From Candidatus Omnitrophota bacterium (GTDB lineage: Bacteria; Omnitrophota; Gorgyraeia; Zapsychrales; Zapsychraceae), in contig JAJDCB010000024.1 of assembly GCA_029261065.1 (NCBI GenBank), positions 12,129 to 76,128 of the forward strand: a stretch of DNA of 64,000 nucleotides, given 5' to 3'. The notes under the pieces are model-generated. The model was not told where the DNA came from. It worked only from the letters and a program-made list of their open reading frames with translations, and did no database searches. Shown one piece after another: positions 17,195 through 64,000 of this stretch (position 1 is its first letter; each line of letters begins with the position of its first letter). The position numbers and the translations under genes are program-made.

Positions 17195-17206
17195 AACAGA
17201 GAGCCG

Positions 17207-17932
17207 TTATTTATCCCCTTGATAAATCGTTGCCACACCAAAGAGCAGTTCATTGGCTTTGACATTTTTAAAGCCTTTATCTCTCATGAGCTGACAAAAT
17301 TGATCACCAAAAGGAAAAGATTCAATGGTTTGATTCAGGTATTTGTAGGCCTTGTAATGCCGGGAGATGATCCACCCAACAATTGGAACAATCGTGCGTA
17401 GGTAAAAGATGTGAAGAATGCGCATAATGATATTTTTAGGTAATGAAAATTCTAAGATGAGCGCTCGGCCCCCTTTATTGAGTACCCGATACATCTCTGC
17501 CATCACCTGAGTTGGGTCCTCAACATTGCGGATACCGAAAGAAATCGTCACGTTATGAAAGGTATTTTCATCAAAAGGAATGTTGTTGGCATCACCGTGT
17601 TGAAGGGTGATTTTGTTATCCAGATTTTTGGTCTTGATTTTTTCTCGACCAATTTCCAGCATTTTCTCAGCCATATCAATACCAATAGCTGATTCGATAT
17701 AAGGATGTTGCTCAAATAAACTTAATAAAACATCTCCCGTACCTGTCGCCAAATCAAGTAATTTTGGATTCTCGCCTAAAACCAAAAAACGACCTAATTT
17801 TTTGCGCCACACAATGTCCAATCCAAAGGACAATAAATGGTTTAAAAGGTCGTATTTCGGCGAGATGGCATTAAACATCTGCCAAGATTCAGATTTTTCC
17901 AGCGCTAATTTTTGATTTGGAGATTTTGTCAT
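17207..17932 (-). CDS. ubiE: Demethylmenaquinone/ubiquinone C-methyltransferase
   Basis: 241 aa; class I SAM-MTase motif LDLATGTGD with the UbiE/MenG-type N- and C-terminal regions. Confidence 0.85.
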   Translation of the reverse strand: MTKSPNQKLALEKSESWQMFNAISPKYDLLNHLLSFGLDIVWRKKLGRFLVLGENPKLLDLATGTGDVLLSLFEQHPYIESAIGIDMAEKMLEIGREKIKTKNLDNKITLQHGDANNIPFDENTFHNVTISFGIRNVEDPTQVMAEMYRVLNKGGRALILEFSLPKNIIMRILHIFYLRTIVPIVGWIISRHYKAYKYLNQTIESFPFGDQFCQLMRDKGFKNVKANELLFGVATIYQGDK

Positions 17933-52109: not shown

Positions 52110-53627
52110 TTGAAAGTATGTATTCTAAATCCATCTTTTGGAGATGATTTTGTGCGTGTGGCGCGTTGGGCGGCAAAGTCCAGAGGACGGGTTCAACGCC
52201 ATCCAGAATATATGTTAACAGCGGCACAAGTCCTTATTGATCAAGGTCATGACGTTATTTATGTTGAGGCCGCAGCCCGAAACTTTACACCTGAAGAAAC
52301 CTATAAAATCGTTAATGATTTTAAGCCTGAATTGTTAATGCTTCATGCAACAACTCCCTCCATTTATAACGATATCGAACAAGCCAAGGTTATTAAAGAA
52401 CAAAACAATTGCAAGGTTGCCTTTGTCGGTCAACATGCGAGTGCTGAACCAGAAAATACCATTACGATTAGTGAGGGTGTTGTGGATTACATTTTATTAG
52501 GGGAATATGACTACACCCTACGGGATCTTGCCGACGGGTTGACACCATCAAAAGTATTGAGCTTGGTCTGGAATGATGGTGGAAATATTATTACAAACCC
52601 TCAACGTCAATCCATTGATGTTAATGAACTCCCTTTTCCTGCTTGGCAATTAATTGAACCCGAATGGTATCCAGATGGTGGTAAAAAATTTCCATTTTTA
52701 ACGTTAATGACGGGTCGTGGTTGTAATAATGGTTGTACGTTTTGTCGTGACCCTCAAATCATGTATGGCTATCGTCTTCGAAATAGAACGGCACAGAGTG
52801 TTGTGGATGAAATGGAATATGATATTAAATTACACCCACAAGTGCGTGAAATCATGTTTGAAACAGATACCTTTGCTGCTGACGATGAGCATGTGACAGA
52901 AGTTTGTAATGAGATTATTAAAAGAGGATTACATAAGAAAATTAGTTGGTCATGTAATATGCGTGTGAATACTAATCTTGATCTCTTACCTCTTATGCGT
53001 AAATCGGGTTGTCGTATGCTTATGACGGGGTTTGAATTTGGTTATGATGAAGGGTTAAAAGCGGTAGCTAAAGGTGGTGTTGATGTCGCGATGGCGGCTA
53101 AGTACGCGCATAAAGCCAATGAATTAGGTTTTACGATTCATGGATGTTTTATGATTGGTGCTCCTGGCGAAACACGCGAAACAGCCCAACAAACTATCGA
53201 TTTTGCTAAATCTCTTCCCCTGGATACTATACAGATTACAGGTGTAGCAACGTATCCTGGAACATCTATCTATAAATGGGCAAAAGAAAATGAATATCTG
53301 CGGGCCAATGATTGGCGTGAATGGCTCAATGCTGAGAAAGAACAACGAACTTTGTTAAGTTATCCTCAGTTCTCCTCGCAGGATATTGATGAATATATCG
53401 ACCGCGGTTTAAAAGAATTCTATCTACGCCCTAAGCAAATATGGCAGATGTTTATCTCCATTCGAAGTGTGGGCGATTTATTAAGAAAAATACACGGCTT
53501 TAAAGCTTTTACCGATTACTTTTATAAAAAGCTCTCAGGAAAGTTTGACAATCATGATATGCCTGAAACACCAGCTCTAGAAAAACAAGCGGAATCAATA
53601 GAAAGATGTGAAACTGTTGGCGTTTAA
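52110..53627 (+). CDS. B12-binding-domain radical SAM protein (class B-like), substrate unknown
   Basis: 505 aa. Rossmann-like cobalamin-binding N-domain, then radical-SAM GRGCNNGCTFC. Apparent TTG start at 52110 (in-frame TAA 18 nt upstream, AAGGGA SD); no in-frame ATG nearby. Confidence 0.75.
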   Translation: MKVCILNPSFGDDFVRVARWAAKSRGRVQRHPEYMLTAAQVLIDQGHDVIYVEAAARNFTPEETYKIVNDFKPELLMLHATTPSIYNDIEQAKVIKEQNNCKVAFVGQHASAEPENTITISEGVVDYILLGEYDYTLRDLADGLTPSKVLSLVWNDGGNIITNPQRQSIDVNELPFPAWQLIEPEWYPDGGKKFPFLTLMTGRGCNNGCTFCRDPQIMYGYRLRNRTAQSVVDEMEYDIKLHPQVREIMFETDTFAADDEHVTEVCNEIIKRGLHKKISWSCNMRVNTNLDLLPLMRKSGCRMLMTGFEFGYDEGLKAVAKGGVDVAMAAKYAHKANELGFTIHGCFMIGAPGETRETAQQTIDFAKSLPLDTIQITGVATYPGTSIYKWAKENEYLRANDWREWLNAEKEQRTLLSYPQFSSQDIDEYIDRGLKEFYLRPKQIWQMFISIRSVGDLLRKIHGFKAFTDYFYKKLSGKFDNHDMPETPALEKQAESIERCETVGV

Positions 53628-53696
53628 TTGACATCAAGAACTAATTTTGTTATAACGATTTAAAGTATTCCTACCAATCATAAAAGGAGAAAATTC

Positions 53697-53981
53697 ATGA
53701 CTCATGTTGTTACTGAACCTTGTGTAAAATGTAAATATACGGACTGTGTGACAGTATGTCCTGTTGATTGTTTTCATGAAGATGCTGAGATGCTTGTCAT
53801 CGATCCAGAAGTTTGTATCGATTGCGGTGCTTGCATCCCTGAATGCCCTGTTCAAGCAATTTATACCGAAGAAGACGTCCCCGAACAATGGGCAAGCTAT
53901 ACAAAATTAAATGCCGATAAAACGCTTGAATTGCCTGTTATTACTGAGAAAAAAGAACCGTTAGCTAAAGACGATAAGTAA
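53697..53981 (+). CDS. 2x[4Fe-4S] ferredoxin
   Basis: 94 aa; two CxxCxxCxxxCP motifs ([14 protein letters not shown]; [12 protein letters not shown]). 70 nt downstream of the rSAM gene on the same strand. Confidence 0.85.
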
Positions 53982-54003
53982 GGTTTTCAAATATTTTCAA
54001 TTT

Positions 54004-54046
54004 CCCCCGCATAAATAGTGATATCACTTATTCTATTTGTGCGGGG
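54004..54046 (+). terminator. Hairpin with CCCCGC/GCGGGG clamps downstream of the ferredoxin gene (probable transcription terminator)
   Basis: cccccgcataaatagtgat|atcacttattctatttgtgcgggg is an imperfect ~18-bp stem, followed by an A/T-rich tract. Confidence 0.4.
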
Positions 54047-54069
54047 TTAATCATTTAAGAGAATAGATT

Positions 54070-54567
54070 ATGTGGTTTTTCATGATTAGTTGTTATGTGA
54101 TGAGTTTGTTAACATTGCTCATGCTTTGTATTGGTTTTTTTCAGAGCTTTTTAAATTTTCACATCCTTAGTGCTAATCATGTGGTCTTTATGATTTTAAC
54201 CAGTATTATTTATTCCTTCACAGAAACGCTTGTGATCTTTTTCTTCGTCGGCACGGGAGTCAGTGTTAAGGAGTATGTGCGTGATCACAAAGTAGAGGGC
54301 GATTTCCATAAACGTTCTATTGCTATTAAAAGAATAGTCTATCCTCCCTTACTTATGAATATGCTTTATATGATTATCCTCTTCGTTCTCGTTGGTGCTG
54401 TGGATACCCTTCGTATTGCAGGTTGGATTTATTATGTGTTGTTTGCCTTTTGCATTATCGATTATGTACGCATAAAAGCCATACAAAACAAATGTTTTAA
54501 AGATAACACAGCAATCATTCTTGAGATGTCCGGGATTAAATCACCGCTCGTTACGGGAACGACTTAA
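54070..54567 (+). CDS. Hypothetical membrane protein
   Basis: 165 aa with 4-5 hydrophobic segments; no recognisable motif. Confidence 0.4.
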   Translation: MWFFMISCYVMSLLTLLMLCIGFFQSFLNFHILSANHVVFMILTSIIYSFTETLVIFFFVGTGVSVKEYVRDHKVEGDFHKRSIAIKRIVYPPLLMNMLYMIILFVLVGAVDTLRIAGWIYYVLFAFCIIDYVRIKAIQNKCFKDNTAIILEMSGIKSPLVTGTT

Positions 54568-54836
54568 AATTCAATGTATTTATTAGCGAAATGTGCCCAA
54601 GCTGCTGGTCTAACAATCATCCTCATTGATTTTTTACGAAACTTTCCTAATTTGATGAGTCGAACGATATTATGTGTAGGGATTGGAGTTTTCTTTTTTG
54701 GTTGGAGTATAAACAAATTTTTATTAAAAAAATAGCAACATGGCAAAATTACGAACTATTCTCAAATTTGACACGGGCGCTGATGGGTTTTTAAAGATGA
54801 TTTATGTCCTGGCTTTTCTTATGATACTTACCTTAG

Positions 54837-55199
54837 TTGTTGGTATTTATTTTGTCGTTACAACCTTTTAAAGATATGAATGAAATTTTTAAAAAATTAA
54901 AAGACAAATGGGCTATTACAAGCAATTGGCAATTTTTTGTCATAAATGTTGTTTTTGCATTGGCGGGTATGACAGTTGTTCTCGAACGTCGATTTGTTTT
55001 TGATATCTTTGGTATTACCCAATGGGCATTATGGGTTAAAATTTTTATTTACCTTCCTCTTATCTTTCCTCTCTATCAACTTAACTTGATCATCTTTGGC
55101 ACACTCTTAGGTCAGTTTTCTTTCTTTTGGGAAAAAGAAAAGCAGTTAATGCTATTGATGAAAAAAGTTTTAGCACGCGTTACTTTAAAAGACGTATAA
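54837..55199 (+). CDS. Hypothetical small membrane protein (true start possibly the internal Met, MNEIFKK...)
   Basis: 120 aa ORF with 2-3 TM segments. An additional unlisted 44-aa membrane ORF (MAKLRTILKFDTGADGFLKMIYVLAFLMILTLVVGIYFVVTTF) sits at ~54740-54871. Confidence 0.3.
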   Translation: MLVFILSLQPFKDMNEIFKKLKDKWAITSNWQFFVINVVFALAGMTVVLERRFVFDIFGITQWALWVKIFIYLPLIFPLYQLNLIIFGTLLGQFSFFWEKEKQLMLLMKKVLARVTLKDV

Positions 55200-55592
55200 C
55201 ATCAAATAGATAATGACACCCGTCACAGAAACATACATCCACGTCGGATATAACCATCGTGTTATCCTTACATGCTTATCAAATTGCCCCTTAATGGCAT
55301 GATAAACAGCAATAATGCAGGCTGGTACTATTAGGGCGGCTAGTGGTGTGTGGGTTAAAAGGATAGTAAAATATAAAACGCGTAAGAACCCTTCCTTTTT
55401 ATAGTAGGTCGGACCAGGGGATAAGTAATGATATGTTAAATAGGAACATAAGAAAAGACCTGAGGCTATAAGCGCGCAAACCATAAAGTTGCGATGCAGA
55501 TCCCTTCTCCCCCTTTTTATCGAACAATACCCTAGAAATAAAAAAAGACCTGCTGTAAGGTTTAAGCAGGCGTTAAGAGTTGGCAGGTGCAT
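55185..55592 (-). CDS. DUF420-like 4-TM membrane protein often found with heme-copper oxidase clusters
   Basis: 135 aa; four TM helices with conserved His residues. Positioned at the distal end of the cox/cta/sco cluster. Confidence 0.45.
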   Translation of the reverse strand: MHLPTLNACLNLTAGLFLFLGYCSIKRGRRDLHRNFMVCALIASGLFLCSYLTYHYLSPGPTYYKKEGFLRVLYFTILLTHTPLAALIVPACIIAVYHAIKGQFDKHVRITRWLYPTWMYVSVTGVIIYLMLYVF

Positions 55593-55593
55593 A

Positions 55594-56187
55594 CTATCTT
55601 TCTTTGGCTAATTGGGCGGCATCTTTAAAGAGTTTATTTAGGGCTTGTGTATTTGTACCGTCATAATAACCGCGTATTAAACCATGTCGATCAACTAATG
55701 AAAAATAGGAACTATGAAAAATAGGTTTTTCAATGGATCCTAATTTAAAACTATTAATAACAACATCTCTTATATCTTCCCTCTCACCGGTTAAAAAATG
55801 CCACTTACCATCCTCTTTTCTGTGCTTTTGTGCATAAGCTTTCATAACCTCAACATTATCGTATTCGGGATTTACAGAAATAGAAACTAATTCGACACCA
55901 GCTACGTGTTCAAAGGTTTTATATAATTTTGTCATATTTTTTGTCATTACTGGACAAATATCAGCACACGTTGTAAAGAAAAAATCTGCAATCCATACCT
56001 TATCAGTTAATTCTTTTAAACCAAAGTTTTTCCCTTCCGTCGTGGTTAAAGAAAAGGGATTAACTTGACCCAGGACTGGTATCTGTTCTCGTTTTACCTC
56101 TTGGACAAACGAATACACAGTAAAACTAACAAATAATAAGGTGATAAAAATACTTGCTGAAATAATAAGGATTTTTTTTGATTTCAT
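55594..56187 (-). CDS. SCO1/SenC-family copper chaperone (thioredoxin fold)
   Basis: 197 aa; N-terminal membrane anchor, CADICP (CxxxCP) copper-binding motif and a conserved downstream His. Confidence 0.85.
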   Translation of the reverse strand: MKSKKILIISASIFITLLFVSFTVYSFVQEVKREQIPVLGQVNPFSLTTTEGKNFGLKELTDKVWIADFFFTTCADICPVMTKNMTKLYKTFEHVAGVELVSISVNPEYDNVEVMKAYAQKHRKEDGKWHFLTGEREDIRDVVINSFKLGSIEKPIFHSSYFSLVDRHGLIRGYYDGTNTQALNKLFKDAAQLAKER

Positions 56188-56190
56188 GAT

Positions 56191-57060
56191 TTAAAATTGA
56201 ACGTCACAAATAATGAGAATAAATAATAAAGGTAGATAAATAACAGTGGCTCTTAAAAGCTTTCGCGCATCACAATCTGATTGTGTATTAATAAAAATTT
56301 GACTGACAAAAAACATACCAATTCCTAAAATAGCAGCTCCAAAAAAATATAATCGTCCGGTTAACCCAATAAAAGAAGGTATGAGCGAAATAGGAACGAG
56401 TAAGAGTGAGAAAACAAATATTTGAAAGAAAGTCATCTCACCATTTTTATCAATACAGGGAAGCATTTGGTATCCTCCCTTTTTATAATCCTCTTTATAC
56501 AACCAACCAATGGCATAAAAGTGTGGATGTTGCCAAAGAAATAGAATTGTAAATAAGACCCACGCTCCATAATCCACCTCTCCTGTGGCCGCTGTCCAAC
56601 CACCCATTGGCGGCAAAGCACCTGGAATAGCACCAACGGTTGTATTTAACCAAGACATTCTTTTTAAAGGGGTGTAAATGACAATATATAAAAAACAAGT
56701 TAAAAGACTGATAAATGCGGTTAGTAAATTGATTTGTGTTTGTAAAATGATAATTCCACTTAAAACTAAAATTACACCGAAATTAAGGGCTTCTGAAGGA
56801 GTTAATGTTTTGCTTGGTAACGGCCGTGATTTCGTACGGTCCATCTTGGCATCATATTCTCTTTCCAAAAAGTGGTTTAGGGTAGATGACCCACCACAAA
56901 CCAAACCAGAGCCAAGCAATAACCAAAAGAAATGTAAATAAGAAGGAATGCCTTGAGCGGCAAGATAATAACCTAAGGCGGTTGTTATGAGCACAAGGAG
57001 AAGAATTCTTGGTTTCGTTAATTCTAAATACGCTAATAATTTTTTTTTATTAATAGACAC
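56191..57060 (-). CDS. ctaB: Protoheme IX farnesyltransferase (heme O synthase, UbiA family)
   Basis: 289 aa; UbiA-superfamily membrane protein of the CyoE/CtaB type. Sits between sco1 and ctaA. Confidence 0.85.
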   Translation of the reverse strand: MSINKKKLLAYLELTKPRILLLVLITTALGYYLAAQGIPSYLHFFWLLLGSGLVCGGSSTLNHFLEREYDAKMDRTKSRPLPSKTLTPSEALNFGVILVLSGIIILQTQINLLTAFISLLTCFLYIVIYTPLKRMSWLNTTVGAIPGALPPMGGWTAATGEVDYGAWVLFTILFLWQHPHFYAIGWLYKEDYKKGGYQMLPCIDKNGEMTFFQIFVFSLLLVPISLIPSFIGLTGRLYFFGAAILGIGMFFVSQIFINTQSDCDARKLLRATVIYLPLLFILIICDVQF

Positions 57061-58024
57061 GGGAAACTAACCTTTTAAAGCCTGAGCATGTTAAAGGAGA
57101 AGATCTTAAAATTAGAAGAAATGTAACACCTAAGATACTAGCGCCTATAACGACATGGAGACTTGTAATAATGGGCGATTTTAATGTAAAGATTGTCATG
57201 ACCCCTAATAGAATTTGCAAAATAATGAGGGTATCAAGTGCGTATATTGTTTTTCTAATAGTCGTATCTTTATAGTATTTTAGTCCTATCACATTGACAA
57301 AGCAAATGGCAATACAAATAAATAAAGCGCCTATGCGATGGGAAAAATGAATTATGATTTGTCCCATTTTGACGGGATCAAAATCATTATCAAAACGCCA
57401 ACTGTTAATAATATAGAGCAATTCATCATCAAAGAGCGGCAACCATTTCCCTCCAACTGTCGGAAAATCATATATAGCAAGACCAGAATGCGTGTGTCTC
57501 ATAATAGCACCTAGGAGAAGCTGAATATAGATAAGGATGAGAAAGCTAAAAGTCACCTTTAAAAACAAGGCACTTCTCTTTCGTTCTAAATAATCTCTGT
57601 CTGACCTTTCATCTGAAAGACTGTAAGCGATAAAAATGGTTATTAAAAAAAATGTTTGGGCAAGTATGCCATGAGAAACAGATATGGCTGTAGGAAGAAA
57701 AAATAATACAGTTAATCCTCCAAGGACACCTTGAAGGATAACGGCAAATAGACCAACAGCGCCCACAATCTTTAACCATTTACGTTGATCTTTCACAATT
57801 ATCCAAATGGCCAGGATAAGCATACACAATCCCACAAAACTCGCCACCATACGGTGTCCGTGTTCATAAAAGACCCCTCCAATCATAGGTGGAAATAATG
57901 TCCCATAAGACAAAGGCCAATCAGGAACTGCAAGACCAGATCCTGTACTTGTCACCATGCCTCCAACAAATATGAGAAAAAAGGTAGAAAAACAGGTAAA
58001 TTTTGAAAGATGTTTAAGCCACAT
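57050..58024 (-). CDS. ctaA: Heme A synthase (CtaA/COX15 family)
   Basis: 324 aa; 8-TM protein with conserved His pairs (HRxxA, HxxH-like) typical of COX15/CtaA. Confidence 0.7.
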   Translation of the reverse strand: MWLKHLSKFTCFSTFFLIFVGGMVTSTGSGLAVPDWPLSYGTLFPPMIGGVFYEHGHRMVASFVGLCMLILAIWIIVKDQRKWLKIVGAVGLFAVILQGVLGGLTVLFFLPTAISVSHGILAQTFFLITIFIAYSLSDERSDRDYLERKRSALFLKVTFSFLILIYIQLLLGAIMRHTHSGLAIYDFPTVGGKWLPLFDDELLYIINSWRFDNDFDPVKMGQIIIHFSHRIGALFICIAICFVNVIGLKYYKDTTIRKTIYALDTLIILQILLGVMTIFTLKSPIITSLHVVIGASILGVTFLLILRSSPLTCSGFKRLVSRVY

Positions 58025-58055
58025 GATAAAAATGATGTTTTTTAAAATTTATTTA

Positions 58056-58082
58056 GGAATTTCGAAGCTTTAACGAAATTCC
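58056..58082 (-). terminator. Perfect 9-bp stem hairpin (GGAATTTCG-AAGCTTTAA-CGAAATTCC) between coxII and ctaA; possible terminator or attenuator
   Basis: Seen directly. On the minus strand it is followed by an A/T-rich stretch (TAAATAAATTTT). Confidence 0.3.
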
Positions 58083-58187
58083 AGGTTGGTTTAATAACCC
58101 GTAGCTTGCTGCGGATAATTGAGTCCAGAGCATACCCTGGGTTTAATACCTTGAGTAAATGAATGTAAGCTTAGAAAATGGTGCGTA

Positions 58188-59039
58188 TTAATTCCAAAAG
58201 TCATCGTATCCATCATCGCCAGCACCACCACCCGATCCACCAGATGACGCCGATGCATTGCTGGCAAGCCATGAGTTAAACTTATCTTCATGATGAATGG
58301 TAAGTTTTCCGCGCATGTAGTAATGACCGATACCACATAGTTGTGCGCAGGCAATCTCCGATGTTCCACTTTTGGTTGGTGTAAACCACGTGGGGATACT
58401 CATTCCAGGAATAATATCCTGTTTGACTCGCATTGTAGGAAGTCCAAAACTATGCATTACATCTTTAGAAGTGAGATGTACAATAGCGGGTTTGCCAATT
58501 GGTAGGTGTAGTTGATTTATCGTAGTAAAATCATCATCTCCATTTGGGTCGTTTGGATCAAGTCCTAAGGGATTGGATTGTTTATCAAAATAAGTATTAG
58601 ACGATTTACCAAAAGTTTTGTCTTCACCTGGATAATGAACATTCCAGGCAAATTGTTCGGCGACAACCCTCACCTCAACTTTATCATCTCTCTGAGGATA
58701 GTTATTAACCTGTTTATTCCAGTAAGGAATAGAAAAACCTACTAATAAAATAACTTCTAAGGTAACAACGCCAATTTCAATATAACTAGATATATGATTT
58801 TTGACGCCATGGTAATTAGCACCCTTGTTTTTTTGTTGCCTAAACTTAACTAAGGTTAAAGTAAAAAAGATTGCCCAACCCACAAAAAGAAATAACATCA
58901 GATAGTGAACTAAATACATAACAAAGTCAATTTCCTGAGCATGAGATGATCCGACTTCAGGTAGTCGAAACGTTAAGAGCTTCAGCGTTTCAGGAGAGAA
59001 TGCATTTTGAAATTTTTGAAATAGAGTAGTTGTTTCCAT
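58188..59039 (-). CDS. coxB: Cytochrome c oxidase subunit II (CuA-containing)
   Basis: 283 aa; two N-terminal TM helices and a cupredoxin domain with CuA ligands H...CAQLCGIGHYYM. No fused cytochrome c domain. Confidence 0.85.
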   Translation of the reverse strand: METTTLFQKFQNAFSPETLKLLTFRLPEVGSSHAQEIDFVMYLVHYLMLFLFVGWAIFFTLTLVKFRQQKNKGANYHGVKNHISSYIEIGVVTLEVILLVGFSIPYWNKQVNNYPQRDDKVEVRVVAEQFAWNVHYPGEDKTFGKSSNTYFDKQSNPLGLDPNDPNGDDDFTTINQLHLPIGKPAIVHLTSKDVMHSFGLPTMRVKQDIIPGMSIPTWFTPTKSGTSEIACAQLCGIGHYYMRGKLTIHHEDKFNSWLASNASASSGGSGGGAGDDGYDDFWN

Positions 59040-59045
59040 AGAATT

Positions 59046-59288
59046 TTATTTTATTGATAATTTTGATTTTCGAGCGCAATTAATAAAAAATTTAATAAAT
59101 AACGCAAAAACAGCCATCAAAACTAATAATAACGCAATAATACCTAGTCGTAAGGCCTTGTTGGCGGAGCTATTAGGATCTCCATAAAAGCAAATGCTAC
59201 AAGCCTGAGCTGCAACAGGAAATAGGAGTGTGAATAAATAACACCAACTAAGCGATAACTTTTTTAAAAGTTTTAAAACCATAAACAA
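59046..59288 (-). CDS. Small membrane protein in the cox cluster (function unknown)
   Basis: 80-aa ORF (likely shorter, from MVLKLL...); signal/TM segment, CSIC motif, second TM. Confidence 0.3.
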   Translation of the reverse strand: MFMVLKLLKKLSLSWCYLFTLLFPVAAQACSICFYGDPNSSANKALRLGIIALLLVLMAVFALFIKFFINCARKSKLSIK

Positions 59289-59442
59289 TTAGTCCTATCC
59301 CTATAAATATAGAAATAATACTTGTTACGATATAACCCGTTTGAGATTTTTGAGCAAATTGTTGAAAAGCCCAAAATCCAAAAAATAAACTCAACAAACA
59401 CGAGGCTGATATGAAAATCAAATGAAAGCCTTTAAGATCCAT
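59248..59442 (-). CDS. Small 2-TM membrane protein in the cox cluster (function unknown)
   Basis: 64 aa, two hydrophobic helices; overlaps neighbours. Confidence 0.3.
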   Translation of the reverse strand: MDLKGFHLIFISASCLLSLFFGFWAFQQFAQKSQTGYIVTSIISIFIGIGLIVYGFKTFKKVIA

Positions 59443-59830
59443 GATGATCCTCTACAATTTTGTCATGATTCGCTTCTGTCTCTTCAAGGTGATTGCCTGT
59501 GCCATGGTTTGAATTTCTAAACTCTTGTTTAAAATAAACAGTCCCTTCGGGAAGATCATATTTAGCTGCAACCGTTAACAACAGCATTCCAACAAAAAAA
59601 ATGCCCGTAAATATTAAAATGACATAAATAATCTTTTTTTCAGCAATCAAATGCATGAAAAATGAAGCAACTAAAGAGGCTTTAGCCGTTGCGATGATCA
59701 AAGCAACAACAACAGCCGCTGCAACACCAATATTCAAATCCGATGCCTTCAATGTTAAGAATGTCAGTGCCATCAAAGCAACAAAAACCAGATAGAACCT
59801 TTTTATCTCTTTGTTGATGTCGTGTGCCAT
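59432..59830 (-). CDS. Cytochrome c oxidase subunit IV-like (prokaryotic CoxIV/CtaF family)
   Basis: Start taken at the internal Met (MAHDINKEIKRFYLVFVALMALTFLT...). Three TM helices and the ~100-aa size fit bacterial subunit IV; located directly after coxIII. Confidence 0.45.
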   Translation of the reverse strand: MAHDINKEIKRFYLVFVALMALTFLTLKASDLNIGVAAAVVVALIIATAKASLVASFFMHLIAEKKIIYVILIFTGIFFVGMLLLTVAAKYDLPEGTVYFKQEFRNSNHGTGNHLEETEANHDKIVEDHHGS

Positions 59831-59840
59831 AAAAACCTTT

Positions 59841-60434
59841 TTATAGTAAATACAAAACTGGAAAAAGAAATATCCAAACAAGATCCACAAAATGCCAGTA
59901 TAGACCAACAACTTCTAATCGATTGGTAAACTGAATGGGGTTTGTCTTCCACATCTTGGCTCCGGGGCCCCATAAATAAACCAACACGATGATGCCACCG
60001 ACGATATGCAATGCATGCAATCCTGTTAATGTAAAATAGATCGCATAGTAGGTGTTTTCTTTCGGAAATATGCCATGGCTAAATTTGGCAGAATATTCAA
60101 CACTTTTGATACACATAAATGCTAACGCACAAAGTATCGTTAGCCCTAACATTAATCGAAACTTACCAAAATTATTTTGTTTTAAAGCGGCCCAGGACAA
60201 CAACATGGTGACACTTGATGTGATAAGGACAACCGTATTAATCGCACCAAGAGGAACATTTAGAGTTTCTGAGCCAACAGGCCAATAAACAGCACCAACA
60301 CGCATTAAAATGTAGGCTGAAAACAAAGCCCCAAACAACATGACTTCAGAAGCTAGAAATAACCATATCCCAAATTTGGCATTATAAAGCCCTGTGTCTT
60401 CGCGTTCTTCGAATGTATAAGGAATCGTGTCCAT
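59841..60434 (-). CDS. coxC: Cytochrome c oxidase subunit III
   Basis: 197 aa; 5-TM short-form subunit III with conserved HxxHV and W..VDxVW motifs. Confidence 0.8.
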   Translation of the reverse strand: MDTIPYTFEEREDTGLYNAKFGIWLFLASEVMLFGALFSAYILMRVGAVYWPVGSETLNVPLGAINTVVLITSSVTMLLSWAALKQNNFGKFRLMLGLTILCALAFMCIKSVEYSAKFSHGIFPKENTYYAIYFTLTGLHALHIVGGIIVLVYLWGPGAKMWKTNPIQFTNRLEVVGLYWHFVDLVWIFLFPVLYLL

Positions 60435-60446
60435 TAACTGTAACCT

Positions 60447-62195
60447 TTATCGTATATGTTCTTCTGATTGAGGTGTAAAATCGTCTTTAGCCCCTGGTAC
60501 GCTATATTCATAAGGACCGCGATAAACAACCATTTCTTTTGTAAAATTGCCGTGAGGCGGCGGTGTTGGTGTTTGCCATTCAAGGGTTGTTGCATTCCAA
60601 GGGTTATCAGACTCAACTTTTTTACCAGCAAACATACTCCAAAAAAAGTTAATGATAAATGGAATCTGACCAATGGCCAAAAACCAAGCGCCCCAAGAAA
60701 TTAATTCATTTAAAGCAAAGATCTCTTGTCCATGTTCATAACCAATGCCTCCATCATAAAGACGTCTTGACACCCCCGCTAATCCTTGGACGAGCATAGG
60801 AAAAAAGATGATATTCATACAAATTAGTGATGGCCAAAAATGAAGATGACCTAAAAATTCATTCATTTTTCGTCCTGTTGCTTTAGGGAACCAAAAGTAA
60901 ATCCCAGCAAAAAGCGCAAATATTGTTCCAGGGGCAACAACATAATGAAAATGTCCAATAACATAATAAGTGTCATGCAAGTGAACGTCTGTAATAGCAA
61001 TACCAAGAGGTAATCCCGTTAAACCACCAATTCCAAACATAGGTAAAAATGTGATTGCAAAAAGCATCGGCGTGTTAAATCTAATAGATCCGCCCCAAAA
61101 TGAAATAAACAAAGCCGTTAAAATAATAATAGATGGAATCGAGATGATCATAGTGGTGGCTTGAAAAAAGGAACTGATAGCGGTCCCCATCCCCGTGATG
61201 TACATGTGATGCGCCCACACGATAAATGACATAAATCCAAGAAAGATAACAGAATAAACCATGGATTTATATCCCCACAATGGTTTACGTGTATTATTAG
61301 CAATAATTTCTGCGACAATACCCATACCTGGCAACGTCAAAACGTAAACCTCAGGATGCGCTAAAAACCAAAACAGATGTTGCCATAAAAGAACACTTCC
61401 TCCCCCACTATATTCAACTAATTCTTGGCCACTAACAAGTAAACCACTAGGAATAAAAAAGCTGGTGTGTGCTAAGCGGTCCATGATTTGTAAAACAGCT
61501 GCTCCTAATAAAGGTGGAAAAGCTAAAAGTAGCAAAAATGAAGTAATAAGCTGCGCCCAGACAAAAAATGGTAATCGCATGAAAGTCAGACCTTTGACGC
61601 GTAATTGAAATATAGTAACAATAATGTTGATGGACCCTAATAACGAGGATTGAATGAGAAAGGCCATTCCAAACAACCAAACGGTTTGTCCTTGTGTTGC
61701 AATGACGGATAACGGTGGATAAGCCGTCCAACCCGAATTGGCCGCCCCTCCTGGCAGAAAAAAACTAAACAACATAATACATCCACCCACAAAATATAAC
61801 CAGTAGCTGGCCATGTTTAATCGCGGGAAAGCCATATCAGGAGCCCCGATCTGTAGAGGAACAACAAAATTTCCAAATGCACCAACGGCCAATGGCACAA
61901 CACCTAAAAAGATCATGATAGTTCCATGCATAGCGCCTAATTCGTTATAGAATTCGGGAAGCATAATCCCACCTGGTAAACGCGTGTGATCATCACCAAA
62001 AAGTTTGAGTAAAATATCCGGTAGTGGCAAAGGTTGTTCTGGGTAAGCCAATTGCCAACGCATAAGCATCATTAATCCAAAACCAAATAACAAAAAGACT
62101 AAGGCTGTAATGCCATATTGAATACCAATAACTTTATGATCAGTTGAAAATATATATTTTTTCCAAAAAGGTAATTTAGGATGAGAATCACTCAT
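60447..62195 (-). CDS. coxA: Cytochrome c oxidase subunit I (heme-copper oxidase catalytic subunit)
   Basis: 582 aa; canonical heme a / heme a3-CuB ligands (WAHHMY..., HxH pairs, GHFHYV). Confidence 0.9.
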   Translation of the reverse strand: MSDSHPKLPFWKKYIFSTDHKVIGIQYGITALVFLLFGFGLMMLMRWQLAYPEQPLPLPDILLKLFGDDHTRLPGGIMLPEFYNELGAMHGTIMIFLGVVPLAVGAFGNFVVPLQIGAPDMAFPRLNMASYWLYFVGGCIMLFSFFLPGGAANSGWTAYPPLSVIATQGQTVWLFGMAFLIQSSLLGSINIIVTIFQLRVKGLTFMRLPFFVWAQLITSFLLLLAFPPLLGAAVLQIMDRLAHTSFFIPSGLLVSGQELVEYSGGGSVLLWQHLFWFLAHPEVYVLTLPGMGIVAEIIANNTRKPLWGYKSMVYSVIFLGFMSFIVWAHHMYITGMGTAISSFFQATTMIISIPSIIILTALFISFWGGSIRFNTPMLFAITFLPMFGIGGLTGLPLGIAITDVHLHDTYYVIGHFHYVVAPGTIFALFAGIYFWFPKATGRKMNEFLGHLHFWPSLICMNIIFFPMLVQGLAGVSRRLYDGGIGYEHGQEIFALNELISWGAWFLAIGQIPFIINFFWSMFAGKKVESDNPWNATTLEWQTPTPPPHGNFTKEMVVYRGPYEYSVPGAKDDFTPQSEEHIR

Positions 62196-62202
62196 AAGTT
62201 AT

Positions 62203-62922
62203 TTACTTTTTTCCTGGGCGTGAAAATGAAAAGTTGACTTCCTTGGTTTCCCCTTCAGCTAAAGTTACAGAAACACGTTTTGGGTCTAAACGTTGCTGAA
62301 CGGCCTCAATAACATAAGTTCCCGCTGGCAAATTATCGATTGTAAATTTACCATCATCGCCTGTGACGTTATAAAAAGGATGTTTCAAAACATTGCCATA
62401 TGTGACCATCCAAGGATGAACATCACATTTGATTTGAAACATGAATTCTTCTTCTTTAAAAGTTTTTGTCGTTTCTTTGCGAAATTTGGGCATGGCCAAA
62501 TTGAATTCGGGATTCTTTTTTGATAAACAATGCACGTTATGTAACGTGCCGTCTGGATTAAGAATTTTTAAAGGTTGGCCGACTTGAATGCCAAAAATAG
62601 GAGGATCGTACATACATCCTTTTTGGTCAAGGACAACAGGTTCTGTAGGAGTCGGATAATCTTTATTGGGGACGCCTTCAGCGATATGAATAAAGACGTT
62701 AGCCATTTCATTATTTTCACCTAATGTGATAGATTGTCCAACAACCTCTCCCGAATGATGCGTTAAACATATAGGATCCGCATCCATCTTTATGGGACGT
62801 AATTTGGGTTTTTTACCATCATAAATCACTTGACCTGTAATACTTGCTGAGAAAGCTGTAGAAATAAAAATAAGTTGAAGCCCAAGAAACACTCCAACCT
62901 TTACTAATTTTTTTGTATTCAT
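62203..62922 (-). CDS. Secreted cupredoxin-like (type-1 copper site-like CxxHxxM) protein with C-terminal beta-sandwich (carboxypeptidase-regulatory-like) domain
   Basis: Start at the internal Met (MNTKKLVKVGVFLGL...; AAGGA SD 4 nt upstream), which gives a signal peptide. QIKCDVHPWM resembles the amicyanin/pseudoazurin CTPHPFM copper site, with an upstream His (TLHNVH). C-terminal GKFTIDNLPAGTYVIEA beta-sandwich. Confidence 0.45.
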   Translation of the reverse strand: MNTKKLVKVGVFLGLQLIFISTAFSASITGQVIYDGKKPKLRPIKMDADPICLTHHSGEVVGQSITLGENNEMANVFIHIAEGVPNKDYPTPTEPVVLDQKGCMYDPPIFGIQVGQPLKILNPDGTLHNVHCLSKKNPEFNLAMPKFRKETTKTFKEEEFMFQIKCDVHPWMVTYGNVLKHPFYNVTGDDGKFTIDNLPAGTYVIEAVQQRLDPKRVSVTLAEGETKEVNFSFSRPGKK

Positions 62923-63012
62923 TTTGTCCTTAAAAACGGCTAATAGTTTAATTTCCCTTAAACTACTATATGCGCAATCCGTTGTCAAGAAAGGTTTTAG
63001 ATATTTTTACTA

Positions 63013-63092
63013 TCCCCGCGAATACTCCAGCCGGCTGGAATATTCGCGAGGATAATAAATCTTAAACATGTCATCCCCGCGAAAGCGGGGAT
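63013..63092. repeat. Two adjacent palindromes sharing an ATCCCCGCGAA core: a 41-bp imperfect IR (63013-63053) and a perfect TCCCCGC-GAAA-GCGGGGA hairpin (63073-63092)
   Basis: Seen directly in the intergenic space between the vWA gene stop and the cupredoxin-like gene start. Neither is followed by a T-run. Confidence 0.5.
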
Positions 63093-63108
63093 CCATAGAT
63101 AGTAATAT

Positions 63109-64000
63109 TTATTTAAAATGGAAACCAGAATTGGAATTATTCTCAGGATAAGCTGGTTCTGGGTTTTGATTATTTGGATGGTATCGAACGGGTCGATGAT
63201 CTAGAGATCGAGCTTTTTTGATAAGGTCAATAAACTCTCCTCGATAACCATTAACATCCTTGCCTCTTGTCTGTTGAGCGGTATGAAGAATACGATCATA
63301 CGAAGCGTGAGCTTTGTAGGCTGAGTTTTTTAGCAACAATCCAAATTCAGCCACACTCGCGGCGAACTGAAAGTCATGACCTGGTCGATTTGTAATGTCA
63401 TTGTGCTTAACAATCTTTTTGATCAATCTACTGTTTGATTGATTTGGTTCTTTGTAGCGAAGCTTAACGGTCATCATCTCATGGTTGCTCCAAGGATTTC
63501 TTTTTTGATATTTCAATTCATCGACACCTGCTTGATGAGGCGTTTGTCCTTTGTATGTTGGTACAATTTCATAAAAAGCTGTCACCGTATGCCCCGCCCC
63601 AATCTCACCGGCATCGATGCGATCGTTATTAAAATCACGATTGGCTAGCGCTCGATTTTCATAACCAATTAATCGATATCCTTCAACTTGTTGAGGATTA
63701 AATTCAACTTGTATTTTGACATCTTTTGCAATGGTAAACAGCGTCGATCCAAGTTCCGCAACAAGAACTTTGTGTGCTTCATCATTGGAATCAATGTAAC
63801 TGTAATGACCATTACCTTTATCAGCGATTTGTTCCAATTTTCCATCTTTCAAATTACCAGTTCCAAATCCTAGGATACTTAAAAAGACACCTTCGCGTCT
63901 TTTATTTTCTATGATTTGAACTAACTCTTGATCAGAGCTGACACCAACATTAAAATCACCATCTGTAGCAAGAAGAATACGATTGTTACCCTTACGGATA
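63109..64000 (-). CDS. von Willebrand factor type A domain protein (YfbK/BatA-like), C-terminal part; the gene continues beyond the window end
   Basis: Translation upstream of the listed Met continues in frame (…RKGNNRILLATDGDFNVGVSSDQELVQIIENKRREGVFLSILGFGTGN…), i.e. a vWA MIDAS-fold region, followed by a conserved C-terminal domain. Confidence 0.65.
   Translation of the reverse strand, partial: IRKGNNRILLATDGDFNVGVSSDQELVQIIENKRREGVFLSILGFGTGNLKDGKLEQIADKGNGHYSYIDSNDEAHKVLVAELGSTLFTIAKDVKIQVEFNPQQVEGYRLIGYENRALANRDFNNDRIDAGEIGAGHTVTAFYEIVPTYKGQTPHQAGVDELKYQKRNPWSNHEMMTVKLRYKEPNQSNSRLIKKIVKHNDITNRPGHDFQFAASVAEFGLLLKNSAYKAHASYDRILHTAQQTRGKDVNGYRGEFIDLIKKARSLDHRPVRYHPNNQNPEPAYPENNSNSGFHFK

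What the first reader, a model, noticed from the sequence alone, without database searches (positions are those of the whole stretch)
55185..62922. aa3-type cytochrome c oxidase cluster with unusual gene order and a cupredoxin-like protein as first gene
Order on the minus strand is cupredoxin-like -> coxI -> coxIII -> coxIV-like -> two tiny membrane ORFs -> coxII -> ctaA -> ctaB -> sco1 -> DUF420. The canonical order is coxII-I-III-IV. CoxII has no cytochrome c domain and no cytochrome c gene is present. The leading gene encodes a secreted protein with a type-1-copper-like CxxHxxM site (QIKCDVHPWM) plus an upstream His. This suggests a blue-copper protein, not a c-type cytochrome, may donate electrons to CuA, as in some archaea. 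The two tiny membrane ORFs (59046-59442) could be novel small subunits.
Basis: partly seen in the sequence, partly recalled or inferred. Interest (0 to 1): 0.6.

Follow-up and report, generated by a model that had tools for sequence, protein, structure and literature searches.

The report
Blue-copper partner of a bacterial oxidase
The first gene of this oxygen-respiration operon encodes an unnamed but very widespread blue-copper protein that probably hands electrons to the oxidase in place of the usual cytochrome c, although a cytochrome c-containing complex III almost certainly lies just beyond the window.

Summary
The 11-gene minus-strand operon is real and reads as described. Gene 1 (62203-62922) is a secreted cupredoxin. 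AlphaFold and Foldseek put amicyanin first. A family profile aligns H128/C166/H169/M172 with amicyanin's four copper ligands, and these are invariant in divergent relatives. The copper domain is combined with a carboxypeptidase-regulatory-like beta-sandwich. No curated Pfam or NCBIfam model covers it, and I found no paper on it.

In 54 of 69 related genomes from many phyla the gene sits directly before COX1-COX3-COX4-small-small-COX2. In several lineages it is fused to subunit II (either end) or subunit IV, as cytochrome c is in caa3 oxidases. Both tiny ORFs are conserved and are fused to each other in some Acidobacteriota. This COX1 clade lacks the K-channel lysine.

"No cytochrome c" holds only inside the window. 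An identical contig runs 3.2 kb further into the tail of a Rieske/cytochrome b/7-8-haem cytochrome c operon that stands upstream in relatives.

Best reading (about 0.55): menaquinol, then bc-type complex, then cupredoxin, then CuA. Copper binding and electron transfer are untested. It is a new variant of a known kind.

The parts
62203..62922 (-). Lead gene, 239 aa. It has a signal peptide (MNTKK...TAFSA|SITG), a cupredoxin domain with putative type-1 Cu ligands H128, C166, H169, M172, two further invariant Cys (C52, C103), and a C-terminal CarboxypepD_reg-like beta-sandwich that is probably completed by N-terminal strand 26-35.
   Evidence: Pfam finds only CarboxypepD_reg, at residues 186-232. 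NCBIfam amicyanin scores 20.5 bits against a cut-off of 110. The AF2 model has pLDDT 86.5 and pTM 0.82. Foldseek against PDB puts amicyanin, NirK, plastocyanin and pseudoazurin on top. The family profile hits amicyanin at E 7e-5 with all four ligands aligned. The ligands are invariant in A1, A2 and A3.
60447..62195 (-). COX1, 582 aa, an A-family haem-copper oxidase subunit I. Haem and CuB His ligands, cross-link Tyr (Y284), D-channel residues (N109, D120, N127) and the helix-VI Glu E282 are present. The K-channel Lys is replaced by Ile (I358). There is a 13-aa periplasmic-loop insertion.
   Evidence: PF00115 scores 436 bits. The ungapped alignment to P. denitrificans CoxI is.
59841..60434 (-). 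COX3, the short form of 197 aa.
   Evidence: PF00510 scores 83.8 bits. NCBIfam CtaE/CyoC-like hits are below their cut-offs.
59432..59830 (-). COX4, 132 aa, a prokaryotic subunit IV of the caa3 type.
   Evidence: PF03626 scores 38.2 bits. TIGR02229 scores 48.6 bits, above its cut-off of 37.25.
59248..59442 (-). sm1: a 64-aa protein with two transmembrane helices, a candidate extra oxidase subunit.
   Evidence: No family matches. Homologues occupy the same slot in about 50 loci from many phyla. It is fused to sm2 in loci labelled Thermoanaerobaculia, Holophagales, Acidobacteriota or Multivoraceae, plus one unclassified locus (L025, L055, L057, L064, L066-L068, L082).
59046..59288 (-). sm2: a 78-80-aa protein with an N-terminal hydrophobic segment, a conserved A-C-x-x-C-F-G-(D/A)-P motif and one transmembrane helix. 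It is a candidate extra subunit or assembly factor.
   Evidence: No family matches. The motif and position are conserved in about 35 loci, and it is fused to sm1 in some. The gene call on L083 is 78 aa.
58188..59039 (-). COX2, 283 aa. It has two TM helices and a CuA domain (C-A-Q-L-C-G-I-G-H-Y-Y-M, with Gln instead of the usual Glu). It has no cytochrome c domain. A Gly/Ser linker leads to an acidic aromatic C-terminus, DDGYDDFWN.
   Evidence: PF00116. TIGR02866 scores 138 bits, just under its cut-off of 147.7. Alignment to P. denitrificans and R. sphaeroides CoxII is. Clade survey: Gln in 57 of 62 and an acidic tail in the Gln-type proteins.
57050..58024 (-). CtaA, haem a synthase.
   Evidence: PF02628 scores 141 bits.
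56191..57060 (-). CtaB, haem o synthase (protohaem farnesyltransferase).
   Evidence: PF01040 scores 202 bits.
55594..56187 (-). Sco1/SenC, a copper chaperone for CuA.
   Evidence: PF02630 scores 82 bits.
55185..55592 (-). DUF420 membrane protein, the last gene of the operon.
   Evidence: PF04238 scores 136 bits. It holds the same position in L001 and L002.
62923..63108 (-). Intergenic leader upstream of the lead gene. It holds a GC hairpin (CCCCGC-TTTC-GCGGGG), a long near-perfect palindrome (CGCGAATATTCCAGCCGGCTGGAGTATTCGCG), a TTGACA box and an AAGGA ribosome-binding site.
   Evidence: Read directly from the sequence. No function was tested.
63109..64000 (-). Context gene: the C-terminal part of an 854-aa zf-HC2 (anti-sigma) / VWA / YfbK_C protein. 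Its ECF sigma partner, and the tail of the Rieske/cytochrome b/multihaem c operon, lie beyond the window end.
   Evidence: YfbK_C scores 240 bits. L083 is 100% identical over 5934 bp and extends 3240 bp further.

Best explanation
The operon encodes an aa3-type (A-family) terminal oxidase. Its dedicated electron-entry partner is a periplasmic type-1-copper cupredoxin, not a c-type cytochrome domain.

Proposed chain:
1. Menaquinol is oxidised by a Rieske/cytochrome b complex. A men operon is in the window. The complex carries a membrane-anchored 7-8-haem cytochrome c and is encoded just beyond the window end.
2. The haem c subunit reduces the cupredoxin.
3. The cupredoxin docks on subunit II and reduces CuA.
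4. Electrons then pass to haem a, haem a3-CuB and O2.

The cupredoxin plays the part that the fused cytochrome c domain plays in caa3 oxidases, and that sulfocyanin plays in archaeal SoxM. In this genome it is a separate secreted protein. In other lineages it is lipid-anchored or fused to subunit II or IV. Two conserved small membrane proteins (sm1, sm2) probably belong to the complex or its assembly.

Shown here: gene content, cupredoxin fold, alignment and invariance of the four ligands, synteny, fusions.

Inferred: copper binding, redox role and direction of electron flow, docking, and the presence of the bc operon in this very genome.
For: (1) Cupredoxin identity.
- AF2 model: pLDDT 86.5, pTM 0.82.
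- Foldseek against PDB: best hits are amicyanin (E about 5e-4, target TM 0.63-0.66), NirK, plastocyanin and pseudoazurin.
- A family profile hits amicyanin sequences at E 7e-5. It aligns H128/C166/H169/M172 with amicyanin's PHNVH and CTPHPFM motifs, which carry its four copper ligands (the ligand numbering H53/C92/H95/M98 is from my own knowledge).
- These four residues are invariant in 50 divergent representatives (34-47% identity) that were found without any motif bias.

(2) Periplasmic location. The window protein has a signal peptide. About half of the divergent representatives have a lipobox plus a Pro/Ala/Gly linker, as membrane-tethered electron carriers do.

(3) Synteny.
- 54 of 69 genomic loci have COX1 starting less than 600 nt after the lead gene, across Omnitrophota, Acidobacteriota, Planctomycetota, Latescibacterota, Marinimicrobia and others.
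- In 15 of 59 loci the Rieske/cytochrome b/multihaem c operon lies upstream on the same strand. In four of these it directly abuts the lead gene.

(4) Fusions.
- Lead::CoxII: about 12 clusters. P0289 is seen on 16 contigs.
- CoxII::lead: P0232, P0284, P0285.
- CoxIV::lead: a cluster of 19 members in Poribacteria.
- All fused modules keep the ligands.
- L084 carries multihaem c, then free lead, then lead::CoxII, then COX1, in series.

(5) CoxII has an intact CuA site and the entry Trp but no haem c domain.

(6) In the window the lead gene stands with the structural genes, 7 nt before COX1. The assembly genes CtaA, CtaB and Sco1 stand at the far end.
Against: - No copper-binding, spectroscopic or kinetic data exist.
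- The Foldseek and profile E-values are modest. The curated amicyanin model scores 20.5 bits against a cut-off of 110, and no Pfam cupredoxin model reaches threshold.
- I had no model coordinates, so the site geometry and the C52-C103 distance could not be measured.
- A multihaem cytochrome c is (by inference) encoded next door and could reduce CuA directly.
- The reverse association is weaker. Only 7 of 13 metagenomic loci of the same COX1 clade with at least 2.2 kb upstream carry the lead gene nearby. The oxidase can therefore exist without a linked cupredoxin.
- Net charge gives no sign of electrostatic docking to the acidic CoxII tail.
- The two extra invariant cysteines and the DQxGCxYxP motif are unexplained and could mark another function.
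Confidence: 0.55

Rival explanations
1. AcoP-like accessory partner. The multihaem cytochrome c of the neighbouring bc-type complex reduces CuA directly, as the dihaem QcrC does in actinobacterial bcc-aa3 supercomplexes. The cupredoxin is a bound partner that stabilises or tunes the oxidase, or bridges the two complexes, rather than an obligatory electron carrier.
For: A 7-8-haem cytochrome c gene precedes the lead gene in relatives, and by inference in this genome. AcoP of A. ferrooxidans is a cupredoxin encoded in oxidase gene clusters. It binds both cytochrome c and the oxidase and keeps the oxidase active (PMC4059628). Fusion to subunit IV fits a structural subunit as well as a carrier.
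Against: 44 of 59 loci with at least 8 kb upstream have the lead gene but no bc/multihaem operon within reach. The ligand set and loop are those of a classical electron-transfer type-1 site. Fusion to either end of CoxII mirrors the caa3 donor domain. No AcoP structure or sequence appeared among the fold or profile hits listed.
Confidence: 0.2
2. Copper chaperone or assembly factor. The protein delivers copper to CuA or CuB, a PCuAC-like role, or handles thiol/disulfide chemistry during CuA assembly through C52 and C103.
For: It shares an operon with Sco1, CtaA and CtaB. PCuAC also has a cupredoxin-like fold (own knowledge). Two extra invariant Cys plus a near-invariant His56 could form a second metal or redox site.
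Against: No PCuAC (PF04314) hit or H(M)x10Mx21HxM motif was found. The His/Cys/His/Met set aligns with a redox type-1 site. The gene sits at the structural end of the operon. Permanent fusion to mature subunits II and IV, and tandem copies in series, would be odd for a transient chaperone.
Confidence: 0.1
3. Sensor or other non-respiratory role. The domain senses periplasmic redox state or copper, for instance feeding the adjacent ECF sigma/anti-sigma pair.
For: An ECF sigma gene and a zf-HC2 anti-sigma-like VWA protein lie directly upstream here and in five Omnitrophota-type loci. One representative (P0122) is a zf-HC2 anti-sigma N-terminus fused to two lead modules.
Against: P0122 is a single sequence of unverified origin. 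The sigma/anti-sigma pair is absent from most loci, whereas the oxidase linkage is general.
Confidence: 0.05

Closest known systems
caa3-type cytochrome c oxidase (e.g. Thermus thermophilus 2YEV, Bacillus, Rhodothermus)
   Same: It is an A-family oxidase whose electron donor is built into the enzyme by fusion to subunit II. Subunit IV here matches the caa3 subunit IV model above its cut-off. In relatives the lead module is fused to CoxII at the C-terminus, just as the cytochrome c domain is.
   Different: The donor module is a type-1-copper cupredoxin, not a haem c domain. CoxII here has no CxxCH. In this genome the module is a separate gene. COX1 lacks the K-channel lysine. The gene order is COX1-COX3-COX4-sm1-sm2-COX2.
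SoxM supercomplex with sulfocyanin (SoxE) of Sulfolobus acidocaldarius
   Same: A blue copper protein is encoded together with Rieske, cytochrome b and a CuA-type oxidase. It is thought to act 'much like the cytochrome c' between them (PMC3750248).
   Different: SoxM is archaeal. Sulfocyanin was not among the fold or profile hits listed. In SoxM subunits I and III are fused and there is no multihaem cytochrome c (both from own knowledge). The present family is bacterial, spans many phyla and carries an extra transthyretin-like domain.
[quoted passage not shown]
   Same: It is a cupredoxin whose gene and homologues lie in cytochrome c oxidase gene clusters. It is tightly bound to the oxidase and may have an electron-transfer role (PMC4059628).
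   Different: AcoP has a green site and a TM anchor, is confined to acidophiles, and is a different cupredoxin subfamily. No detectable similarity to it appeared among the hits listed.
Amicyanin (Paracoccus denitrificans, 1AAC/1AAJ)
   Same: It is the closest solved structure and sequence. It shares the cupredoxin fold, the upstream PHNVH His motif and the short C-x2-H-x2-M ligand loop.
   Different: Amicyanin is a 105-aa single domain that shuttles electrons from methylamine dehydrogenase to cytochrome c-551i (own knowledge). The lead protein scores 20.5 bits against the family cut-off of 110. It has about 60 extra N-terminal residues with two invariant Cys, and a CarboxypepD_reg domain.
Actinobacterial bcc-aa3 supercomplex (e.g. 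6ADQ, 7RH5)
   Same: COX1 is similar, at E about 1e-110. Complex III and complex IV are genetically and functionally coupled, with no soluble cytochrome c.
   Different: There a dihaem cytochrome cc subunit feeds CuA directly and no cupredoxin takes part (own knowledge). This is the model behind the main rival explanation.

Membership tests
Type-1 (blue) copper cupredoxins | Greek-key cupredoxin beta-sandwich fold | tested here: met
   AF2 model with pLDDT 86.5. The top Foldseek PDB hits are amicyanin, plastocyanin, pseudoazurin and the NirK cupredoxin domain, with target TM 0.6-0.67.
Type-1 (blue) copper cupredoxins | Ligand set: an upstream His plus a Cys-x(n)-His-x(m)-Met loop | tested here: met
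   H128, C166, H169 and M172 align with amicyanin's PHNVH and CTPHPFM ligand motifs. They are invariant in 28, 93 and 50 sequences. The 93-sequence set is biased by the search patterns; the 50-sequence set is not.
Type-1 (blue) copper cupredoxins | Binds one Cu, with a ~600 nm charge-transfer band, small A-parallel EPR and a reversible redox couple | not testable with these tools
   This needs expressed protein.
Type-1 (blue) copper cupredoxins | Match to a curated cupredoxin model (Pfam Copper-bind or Cupredoxin_1; NCBIfam amicyanin TIGR02657) | tested here: not met
   No Pfam cupredoxin model hits at E <= 0.01. TIGR02657 scores 20.5 bits against a cut-off of 110.2. It is therefore a cupredoxin by fold and ligands, but not a member of the amicyanin equivalog.
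A-family (aa3-type) haem-copper oxygen reductase | Subunit I with six His ligands and the cross-linked Tyr in HPEVY | tested here: met
   Ungapped alignment to P. denitrificans CoxI. The equivalents of H94, H276, H325, H326, H411, H413 and Y280 are all present.
A-family (aa3-type) haem-copper oxygen reductase | D-channel (N113, D124, N131, E278 in P. denitrificans numbering) | tested here: met
   N109, D120, N127 and E282 in the window protein.
A-family (aa3-type) haem-copper oxygen reductase | K-channel lysine (K354 in P. denitrificans, K362 in R. sphaeroides) | tested here: not met
   Ile358 occupies that position. It is I, V or L in 58/58, 60/60 and 28/28 clade members. By contrast 41 of 51 other A-family COX1 in the same scan have Lys. 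S291 is replaced by Ala here, T351 by Ser, and the entrance Glu of subunit II is kept.
A-family (aa3-type) haem-copper oxygen reductase | CuA site in subunit II (H...CxExCGxxHxxM) and haem A synthesis genes | tested here: met
   The CuA ligands are present, with Gln in place of Glu. CtaA and CtaB are in the operon.
caa3-type oxidase | Cytochrome c domain (CxxCH) fused to subunit II | tested here: not met
   CoxII has no CxxCH, nor does any operon protein. Only the subunit IV model of the caa3 type is met.
PCuAC / copper chaperones | PF04314 match or the H(M)x10Mx21HxM motif | tested here: not met
   No such Pfam hit. The motif is absent on reading the sequence.
Carboxypeptidase regulatory-like (transthyretin-like) domain | Full PF13620 or PF13715 domain | tested here: inconclusive
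   The C-terminus matches only profile positions 33-80 of 82 (33.2 bits, cut-off 32.3). Joining N-terminal strand 27-46 to the C-terminus extends PF13715 coverage to 2-77 of 88, but at 27 bits, below the cut-off of 32.2. A split domain with the cupredoxin inserted is inferred, not proven.

The most novel reading that the evidence does not exclude
This would be a distinct, widespread bacterial class of 'cupredoxin-aa3' oxidases. An unnamed type-1-copper module (a cupredoxin combined with a transthyretin-like domain; about 2,000 clusters at 50% identity) would be the built-in electron-entry subunit, taking the place of the cytochrome c domain of caa3 enzymes. In the clade found here, the catalytic subunit would work without the canonical K-channel lysine and with two extra small subunits. 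This would make the final step of aerobic respiration copper-based rather than haem c-based in Omnitrophota, many Acidobacteriota, Planctomycetota, Latescibacterota, Marinimicrobia and Poribacteria.
Probability: 0.45. Interest if true: 0.7.

Novelty: new variant of a known kind. Interest (0 to 1): 0.6.

Why it matters
If correct, a large and ecologically important set of mostly uncultured bacteria feeds its main proton-pumping oxidase through a dedicated copper protein that current annotation calls only a 'carboxypeptidase regulatory-like domain protein'. These include soil Acidobacteriota, groundwater Omnitrophota, and marine Marinimicrobia and Poribacteria.

Three consequences would follow:
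- Metabolic reconstructions that now score these organisms as lacking an electron donor for cytochrome c oxidase would change.
- Aerobic respiration in these groups would be tied more tightly to copper supply.
- Bioenergetics would gain a natural bacterial counterpart of archaeal SoxM/sulfocyanin, and of caa3 with a swapped donor module.

The clade-wide loss of the K-channel lysine in an otherwise classical A-type enzyme is a separate, testable puzzle for proton-uptake mechanisms.

Tried and rejected
(1) A replacement for the K-channel lysine. I considered the Glu at the P. denitrificans H292 position, which is invariant in the clade (64/64). I rejected it as a clade-specific substitute because 18 of 51 Lys-containing or other A-family COX1 also have Glu there.

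(2) Cytochrome c taking the cupredoxin's operon slot. In clade loci without the lead gene (L098, L100, L102), cytochrome c genes lie directly upstream of COX1. I rejected the idea that they replace the cupredoxin: Pfam shows they are FixO/CcoO and CcoP of a neighbouring cbb3 oxidase operon, with a CcoN-like gene before them.

(3) The acidic CoxII tail as an electrostatic dock for a basic cupredoxin. This is not supported. Unfused modules have a median pI of 6.4 and the window protein 6.6. What remains is that CoxII fused to the module at its N-terminus lacks the tail.

(4) Split CarboxypepD_reg domain. The concatenation test improved coverage but stayed below the cut-off.

(6) Source genome. 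It is not among the GTDB representatives (best hit 60% identity). The upstream bc operon could only be reached as far as L083 extends.

(7) Literature. Seven full-text searches found no paper describing this family or clade. The Caldithrix genome paper proposes 'plastocyanin' genes, located outside its cox cluster, as carriers. The Omnitrophota survey mentions only the presence of cytochrome c oxidase.

(8) Promoter and terminator scans of the operon were at chance level.

Full report
**Observation.** The minus strand of 55185-62922 carries eleven tightly packed ORFs.
- the lead gene, 62203-62922;
- COX1, COX3 and COX4 (caa3-type subunit IV, above its cut-off);
- two small ORFs with no family;
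- COX2, CtaA, CtaB, Sco1 and DUF420.

Gaps between genes are 1-12 nt or overlaps, except 163 nt between COX2 and CtaA. CoxII aligns with P. denitrificans and R. sphaeroides CoxII. All CuA ligands and the electron-entry Trp are present, and Gln replaces the usual Glu (C-A-Q-L-C-G-I-G-H-Y-Y-M). No operon protein has a CxxCH motif. The only CxxCH in the 64 kb window lies in a Fur-family regulator.

**The lead protein.** Pfam sees only a partial CarboxypepD_reg domain at residues 186-232. NCBIfam gives a sub-threshold amicyanin hit (20.5 bits, cut-off 110).

The family is very large. There are 5,733 clusters at 90% identity with E <= 1e-3, and 2,212 representatives at 50% identity with E <= 1e-30, some of which are giant repeat proteins. 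Where sources name it at all, they call it 'carboxypeptidase regulatory-like domain-containing protein' or 'plastocyanin'.

Three lines support a cupredoxin with a type-1 copper site:
- An AlphaFold2 model from 28 relatives is confident (pLDDT 86.5, pTM 0.82). Foldseek against the PDB returns amicyanin first, then NirK cupredoxin domains, plastocyanins and pseudoazurins.
- A profile of the family hits amicyanin sequences at E 7e-5 over residues 90-177. It aligns LHNVH with amicyanin's PHNVH, and KCDVHPWM with HCTPHPFM. H128, C166, H169 and M172 therefore fall on amicyanin's four copper ligands.
- The four residues are invariant in 28 close relatives and in 93 proteins from 82 genomes. That second set was found using those very motifs, so it is biased. 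They are also invariant in 50 representatives of 34-47% identity found by plain HMMER, with no such bias.

C52, C103, Q100, P107, Q116 and D124 are invariant as well and remain unexplained.

Strand 26-35 (xIxGxVxYxG) probably supplies the missing first strand of the C-terminal beta-sandwich. That would make the cupredoxin an insertion in a transthyretin-like domain. A concatenation test supports this only weakly.

The window protein has a cleavable-looking signal peptide. About half of the divergent representatives instead have a lipobox followed by a Pro/Ala/Gly linker. That is the layout of a membrane-tethered periplasmic carrier.

**Context in other genomes.** A scan of species-representative genomes found at least 591 genomes with the gene. 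Their record titles name Omnitrophota, Planctomycetales, Acidobacteriota (Vicinamibacteria, Thermoanaerobaculia, Holophagales), Verrucomicrobiia, Binatia, Latescibacterota, Marinimicrobia, Fidelibacterota, Calditrichaceae, Gemmatimonas and others.

- Of 69 loci with enough downstream sequence, 54 have COX1 starting within 600 nt of the lead gene. COX3-COX4-(sm1)-(sm2)-COX2 usually follows. The 'unusual' order is thus the norm for this clade.
- In 15 of 59 loci with at least 8 kb upstream, a conserved operon precedes the lead gene on the same strand: HEAT-repeat protein, Rieske, cytochrome b N-part, cytochrome b C-part, a 930-980-aa membrane-anchored cytochrome c, and two unknown proteins (u277, u137).
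- The large cytochrome c has 7-8 CxxCH motifs, and Pfam matches Cytochrom_C, FixO, CBB3 and C7.
- In several Omnitrophota-type loci (L001, L004, L006, L008) an ECF sigma gene and a zf-HC2/VWA/YfbK_C anti-sigma-like gene are wedged between that operon and the lead gene.

**What lies beyond the window.** The window ends inside the VWA/YfbK_C gene. A Logan contig, L083, is 100% identical to window 58067-64000 and extends 3,240 bp further. It carries the rest of the 854-aa anti-sigma-like protein, the ECF sigma gene, a u137 homologue and the C-terminus of a u277 homologue. In every related locus that has them, u277-u137 directly follow the multihaem cytochrome c. The source genome therefore almost certainly has the Rieske/cytochrome b/multihaem c operon a few kb past the window end. 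This is an inference from synteny.

**Fusions.** Representatives longer than the family norm turned out to be fusions with oxidase subunits:
- Lead::CoxII, with the module ahead of TM1. There are about 12 clusters at 90% identity. P0289 from an Omnitrophica MAG is seen on 16 contigs.
- CoxII::lead, with the module after the CuA domain through an acidic linker: P0232, P0284, P0285.
- CoxIV::lead: P0193, a cluster of 19 members on many independent Poribacteria contigs, and P0265.

All topologies keep the module in the periplasm, and the fused modules keep every ligand. In L084 the order is Rieske/cytochrome b/multihaem c, free lead, lead::CoxII, COX1.

A donor module fused to subunit II is exactly what defines caa3 oxidases, with haem c swapped for type-1 copper. 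This is the strongest argument that the protein works at the CuA entry point. It also argues against a transient chaperone.

**Limits of the association.** I scanned metagenome contigs with an alignment of the clade's COX1.
- Among clade members (at least 64% identity) with at least 2.2 kb upstream, 7 of 13 had the lead gene in the locus. In three of these it was separated from COX1 by CtaA-CtaB.
- Among more distant A-family COX1 (51% identity or less), 12 loci had the lead gene, always as lead-COX2-COX1.

The cupredoxin therefore partners two operon architectures, and the oxidase clade can occur without a linked copy. In three clade loci lacking the lead gene, cytochrome c genes lie upstream of COX1. 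They proved to be CcoO and CcoP of an adjacent cbb3 operon, not substitutes.

**The oxidase itself.** COX1 aligns without gaps to P. denitrificans CoxI around the active site.
- All His ligands, the HPEVY tyrosine and the D-channel residues are present.
- The K-channel lysine (K354) is Ile358. T351 is Ser and S291 is Ala.
- The position is I, V or L in every clade member examined: 58/58, 60/60 and 28/28. By contrast 41 of 51 other A-family sequences from the same scan have Lys.
- Clade COX1 is 67-80% identical across phyla.
- CoxII of the clade has Gln in the CuA motif in 57 of 62 cases. It also has a flexible acidic tail ending in an aromatic residue (here DDGYDDFWN; median net charge -5 over the last 25 residues). 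N-terminally fused lead::CoxII proteins lack this tail.

Loss of K-channel residues within family A has been noted in the literature, in an evolutionary analysis centred on archaea (PMC8239418). I found nothing on this bacterial clade.

**The tiny ORFs.** sm1 (64 aa, two TM helices) has homologues in the same slot in about 50 loci. sm2 (78-80 aa; A-C-x-x-C-F-G-D/A-P motif followed by a TM helix) has them in about 35 loci. In eight loci, mostly labelled Acidobacteriota lineages (Thermoanaerobaculia, Holophagales), the two are one ORF. They are real genes and are functionally linked. Whether they are subunits or assembly factors is open.

**Mechanism and rivals.** The window also carries a menaquinone pathway, with MenF, D, B, A, C and E and a UbiE-type methyltransferase.

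The best-supported chain is menaquinol, then Rieske/cytochrome b, then multihaem cytochrome c, then type-1-Cu cupredoxin, then CuA, haem a, haem a3-CuB and O2 (confidence about 0.55).

- Main rival (about 0.2): the multihaem cytochrome c reduces CuA directly, and the cupredoxin is an AcoP-like bound partner (PMC4059628).
- A copper-chaperone role (about 0.1) is disfavoured by the ligand set, the gene's position and the fusions.
- A sensory role (about 0.05) rests on the neighbouring sigma/anti-sigma pair and on one anti-sigma::lead fusion, P0122.

**Comparison and novelty.** In function the system resembles three known ones:
- caa3 oxidases, which have a fused donor;
- archaeal SoxM with sulfocyanin (PMC3750248);
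- AcoP.

In structure the module is nearest to amicyanin, but it fails that family's curated threshold. It meets the fold and ligand criteria of type-1 cupredoxins, and copper binding is untested. The oxidase meets every A-family criterion except the K-channel lysine. It fails the defining caa3 feature, since it has no haem c domain.

No Pfam or NCBIfam model, solved structure or paper I could find covers the family. I rate it a new variant of a known kind, with interest 0.6. The concept of a cupredoxin-fed oxidase is established. Its breadth in bacteria, the fusions and the Lys-less clade are not, and all are directly testable.

Noticed in passing
window 60447-62195 (COX1 residue I358); L001-L082, L087-L116: The canonical K-channel lysine of A-family oxidases (P. 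denitrificans K354) is Ile here. It is I, V or L in every member of this COX1 clade. T351 is Ser in nearly all members, and S291 is Ala here and in most of them. The D-channel, the cross-link Tyr and the subunit II entrance Glu are all kept. Clade COX1 is 67-80% identical across phyla.
   Followed up: partly
window 58188-58270 (C-terminus of COX2): CoxII ends in a Gly/Ser linker plus an acidic aromatic tail (…SSGGSGGGAGDDGYDDFWN). An acidic tail ending in F or W is conserved across the clade and missing from lead::CoxII fusions. The CuA motif has Gln instead of Glu in 57 of 62 proteins. The tail's function is unknown, and a simple charge-docking idea was not supported.
   Followed up: partly
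window 62203-62922 (lead residues C52, H56, Q100, C103, Y105, P107): Two further invariant cysteines and a DQxGCxYxP motif lie outside the copper loop. They could form a disulfide or a second metal or redox site. This could not be resolved without model coordinates.
   Followed up: no
window 63109-64000 and L083 1-4132: An ECF sigma factor and an 854-aa zf-HC2 / vWF_A / VWA / YfbK_C anti-sigma-like protein lie directly upstream of the oxidase operon. The same holds in L001, L004, L006, L008 and L014. One unrelated representative (P0122) is a zf-HC2 anti-sigma N-terminus fused to two intact lead modules.
   Followed up: partly
window 62923-63108: The leader of the operon holds a GC hairpin (CCCCGCTTTCGCGGGG) and a 32-nt near-perfect palindrome (CGCGAATATTCCAGCCGGCTGGAGTATTCGCG) ahead of a TTGACA box. 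This may be a terminator plus an operator.
   Followed up: no
window 8196-14017: Three tandem paralogous ORFs of about 645 aa each end in a Peptidase_S74 (endosialidase intramolecular chaperone) domain, as phage tail-fibre or spike proteins do. They are inserted in the middle of the menaquinone biosynthesis cluster, between MenD at 14142-15800 and MenB at 7269-8102.
   Followed up: no
window 3851-8102 and 14142-17932: A classical menaquinone pathway is present: MenE, MenC, MenA, MenB, MenD, MenF and a UbiE-type methyltransferase. An Fe/Mn superoxide dismutase lies at 1365-1985. Both fit a menaquinone-based aerobic or microaerobic respiratory chain.
   Followed up: partly
L002 8611-9860; L001 5248-6434; L083 2-783: Two conserved proteins of unknown function close the Rieske/cytochrome b/multihaem c operon. 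u277 is a polytopic membrane protein of about 257-277 aa. u137 is about 137 aa, with CPxC/CxxC zinc-ribbon-like motifs and a TM helix. Neither has a Pfam family.
   Followed up: no
window 52110-55199 (+ strand): A convergent gene set is syntenic with the Omnitrophota loci L001 and L002. It comprises a B12-binding radical SAM protein, a 2x[4Fe-4S] ferredoxin, a 165-aa membrane protein, small ORFs and DUF6787. Any link to the oxidase is unknown.
   Followed up: no
L098, L100, L102: In some metagenomic loci a cbb3-type oxidase operon (CcoN-like, FixO/CcoO, CcoP) sits directly upstream of the Lys-less aa3 operon. The two terminal oxidases are therefore adjacent.
   Followed up: partly
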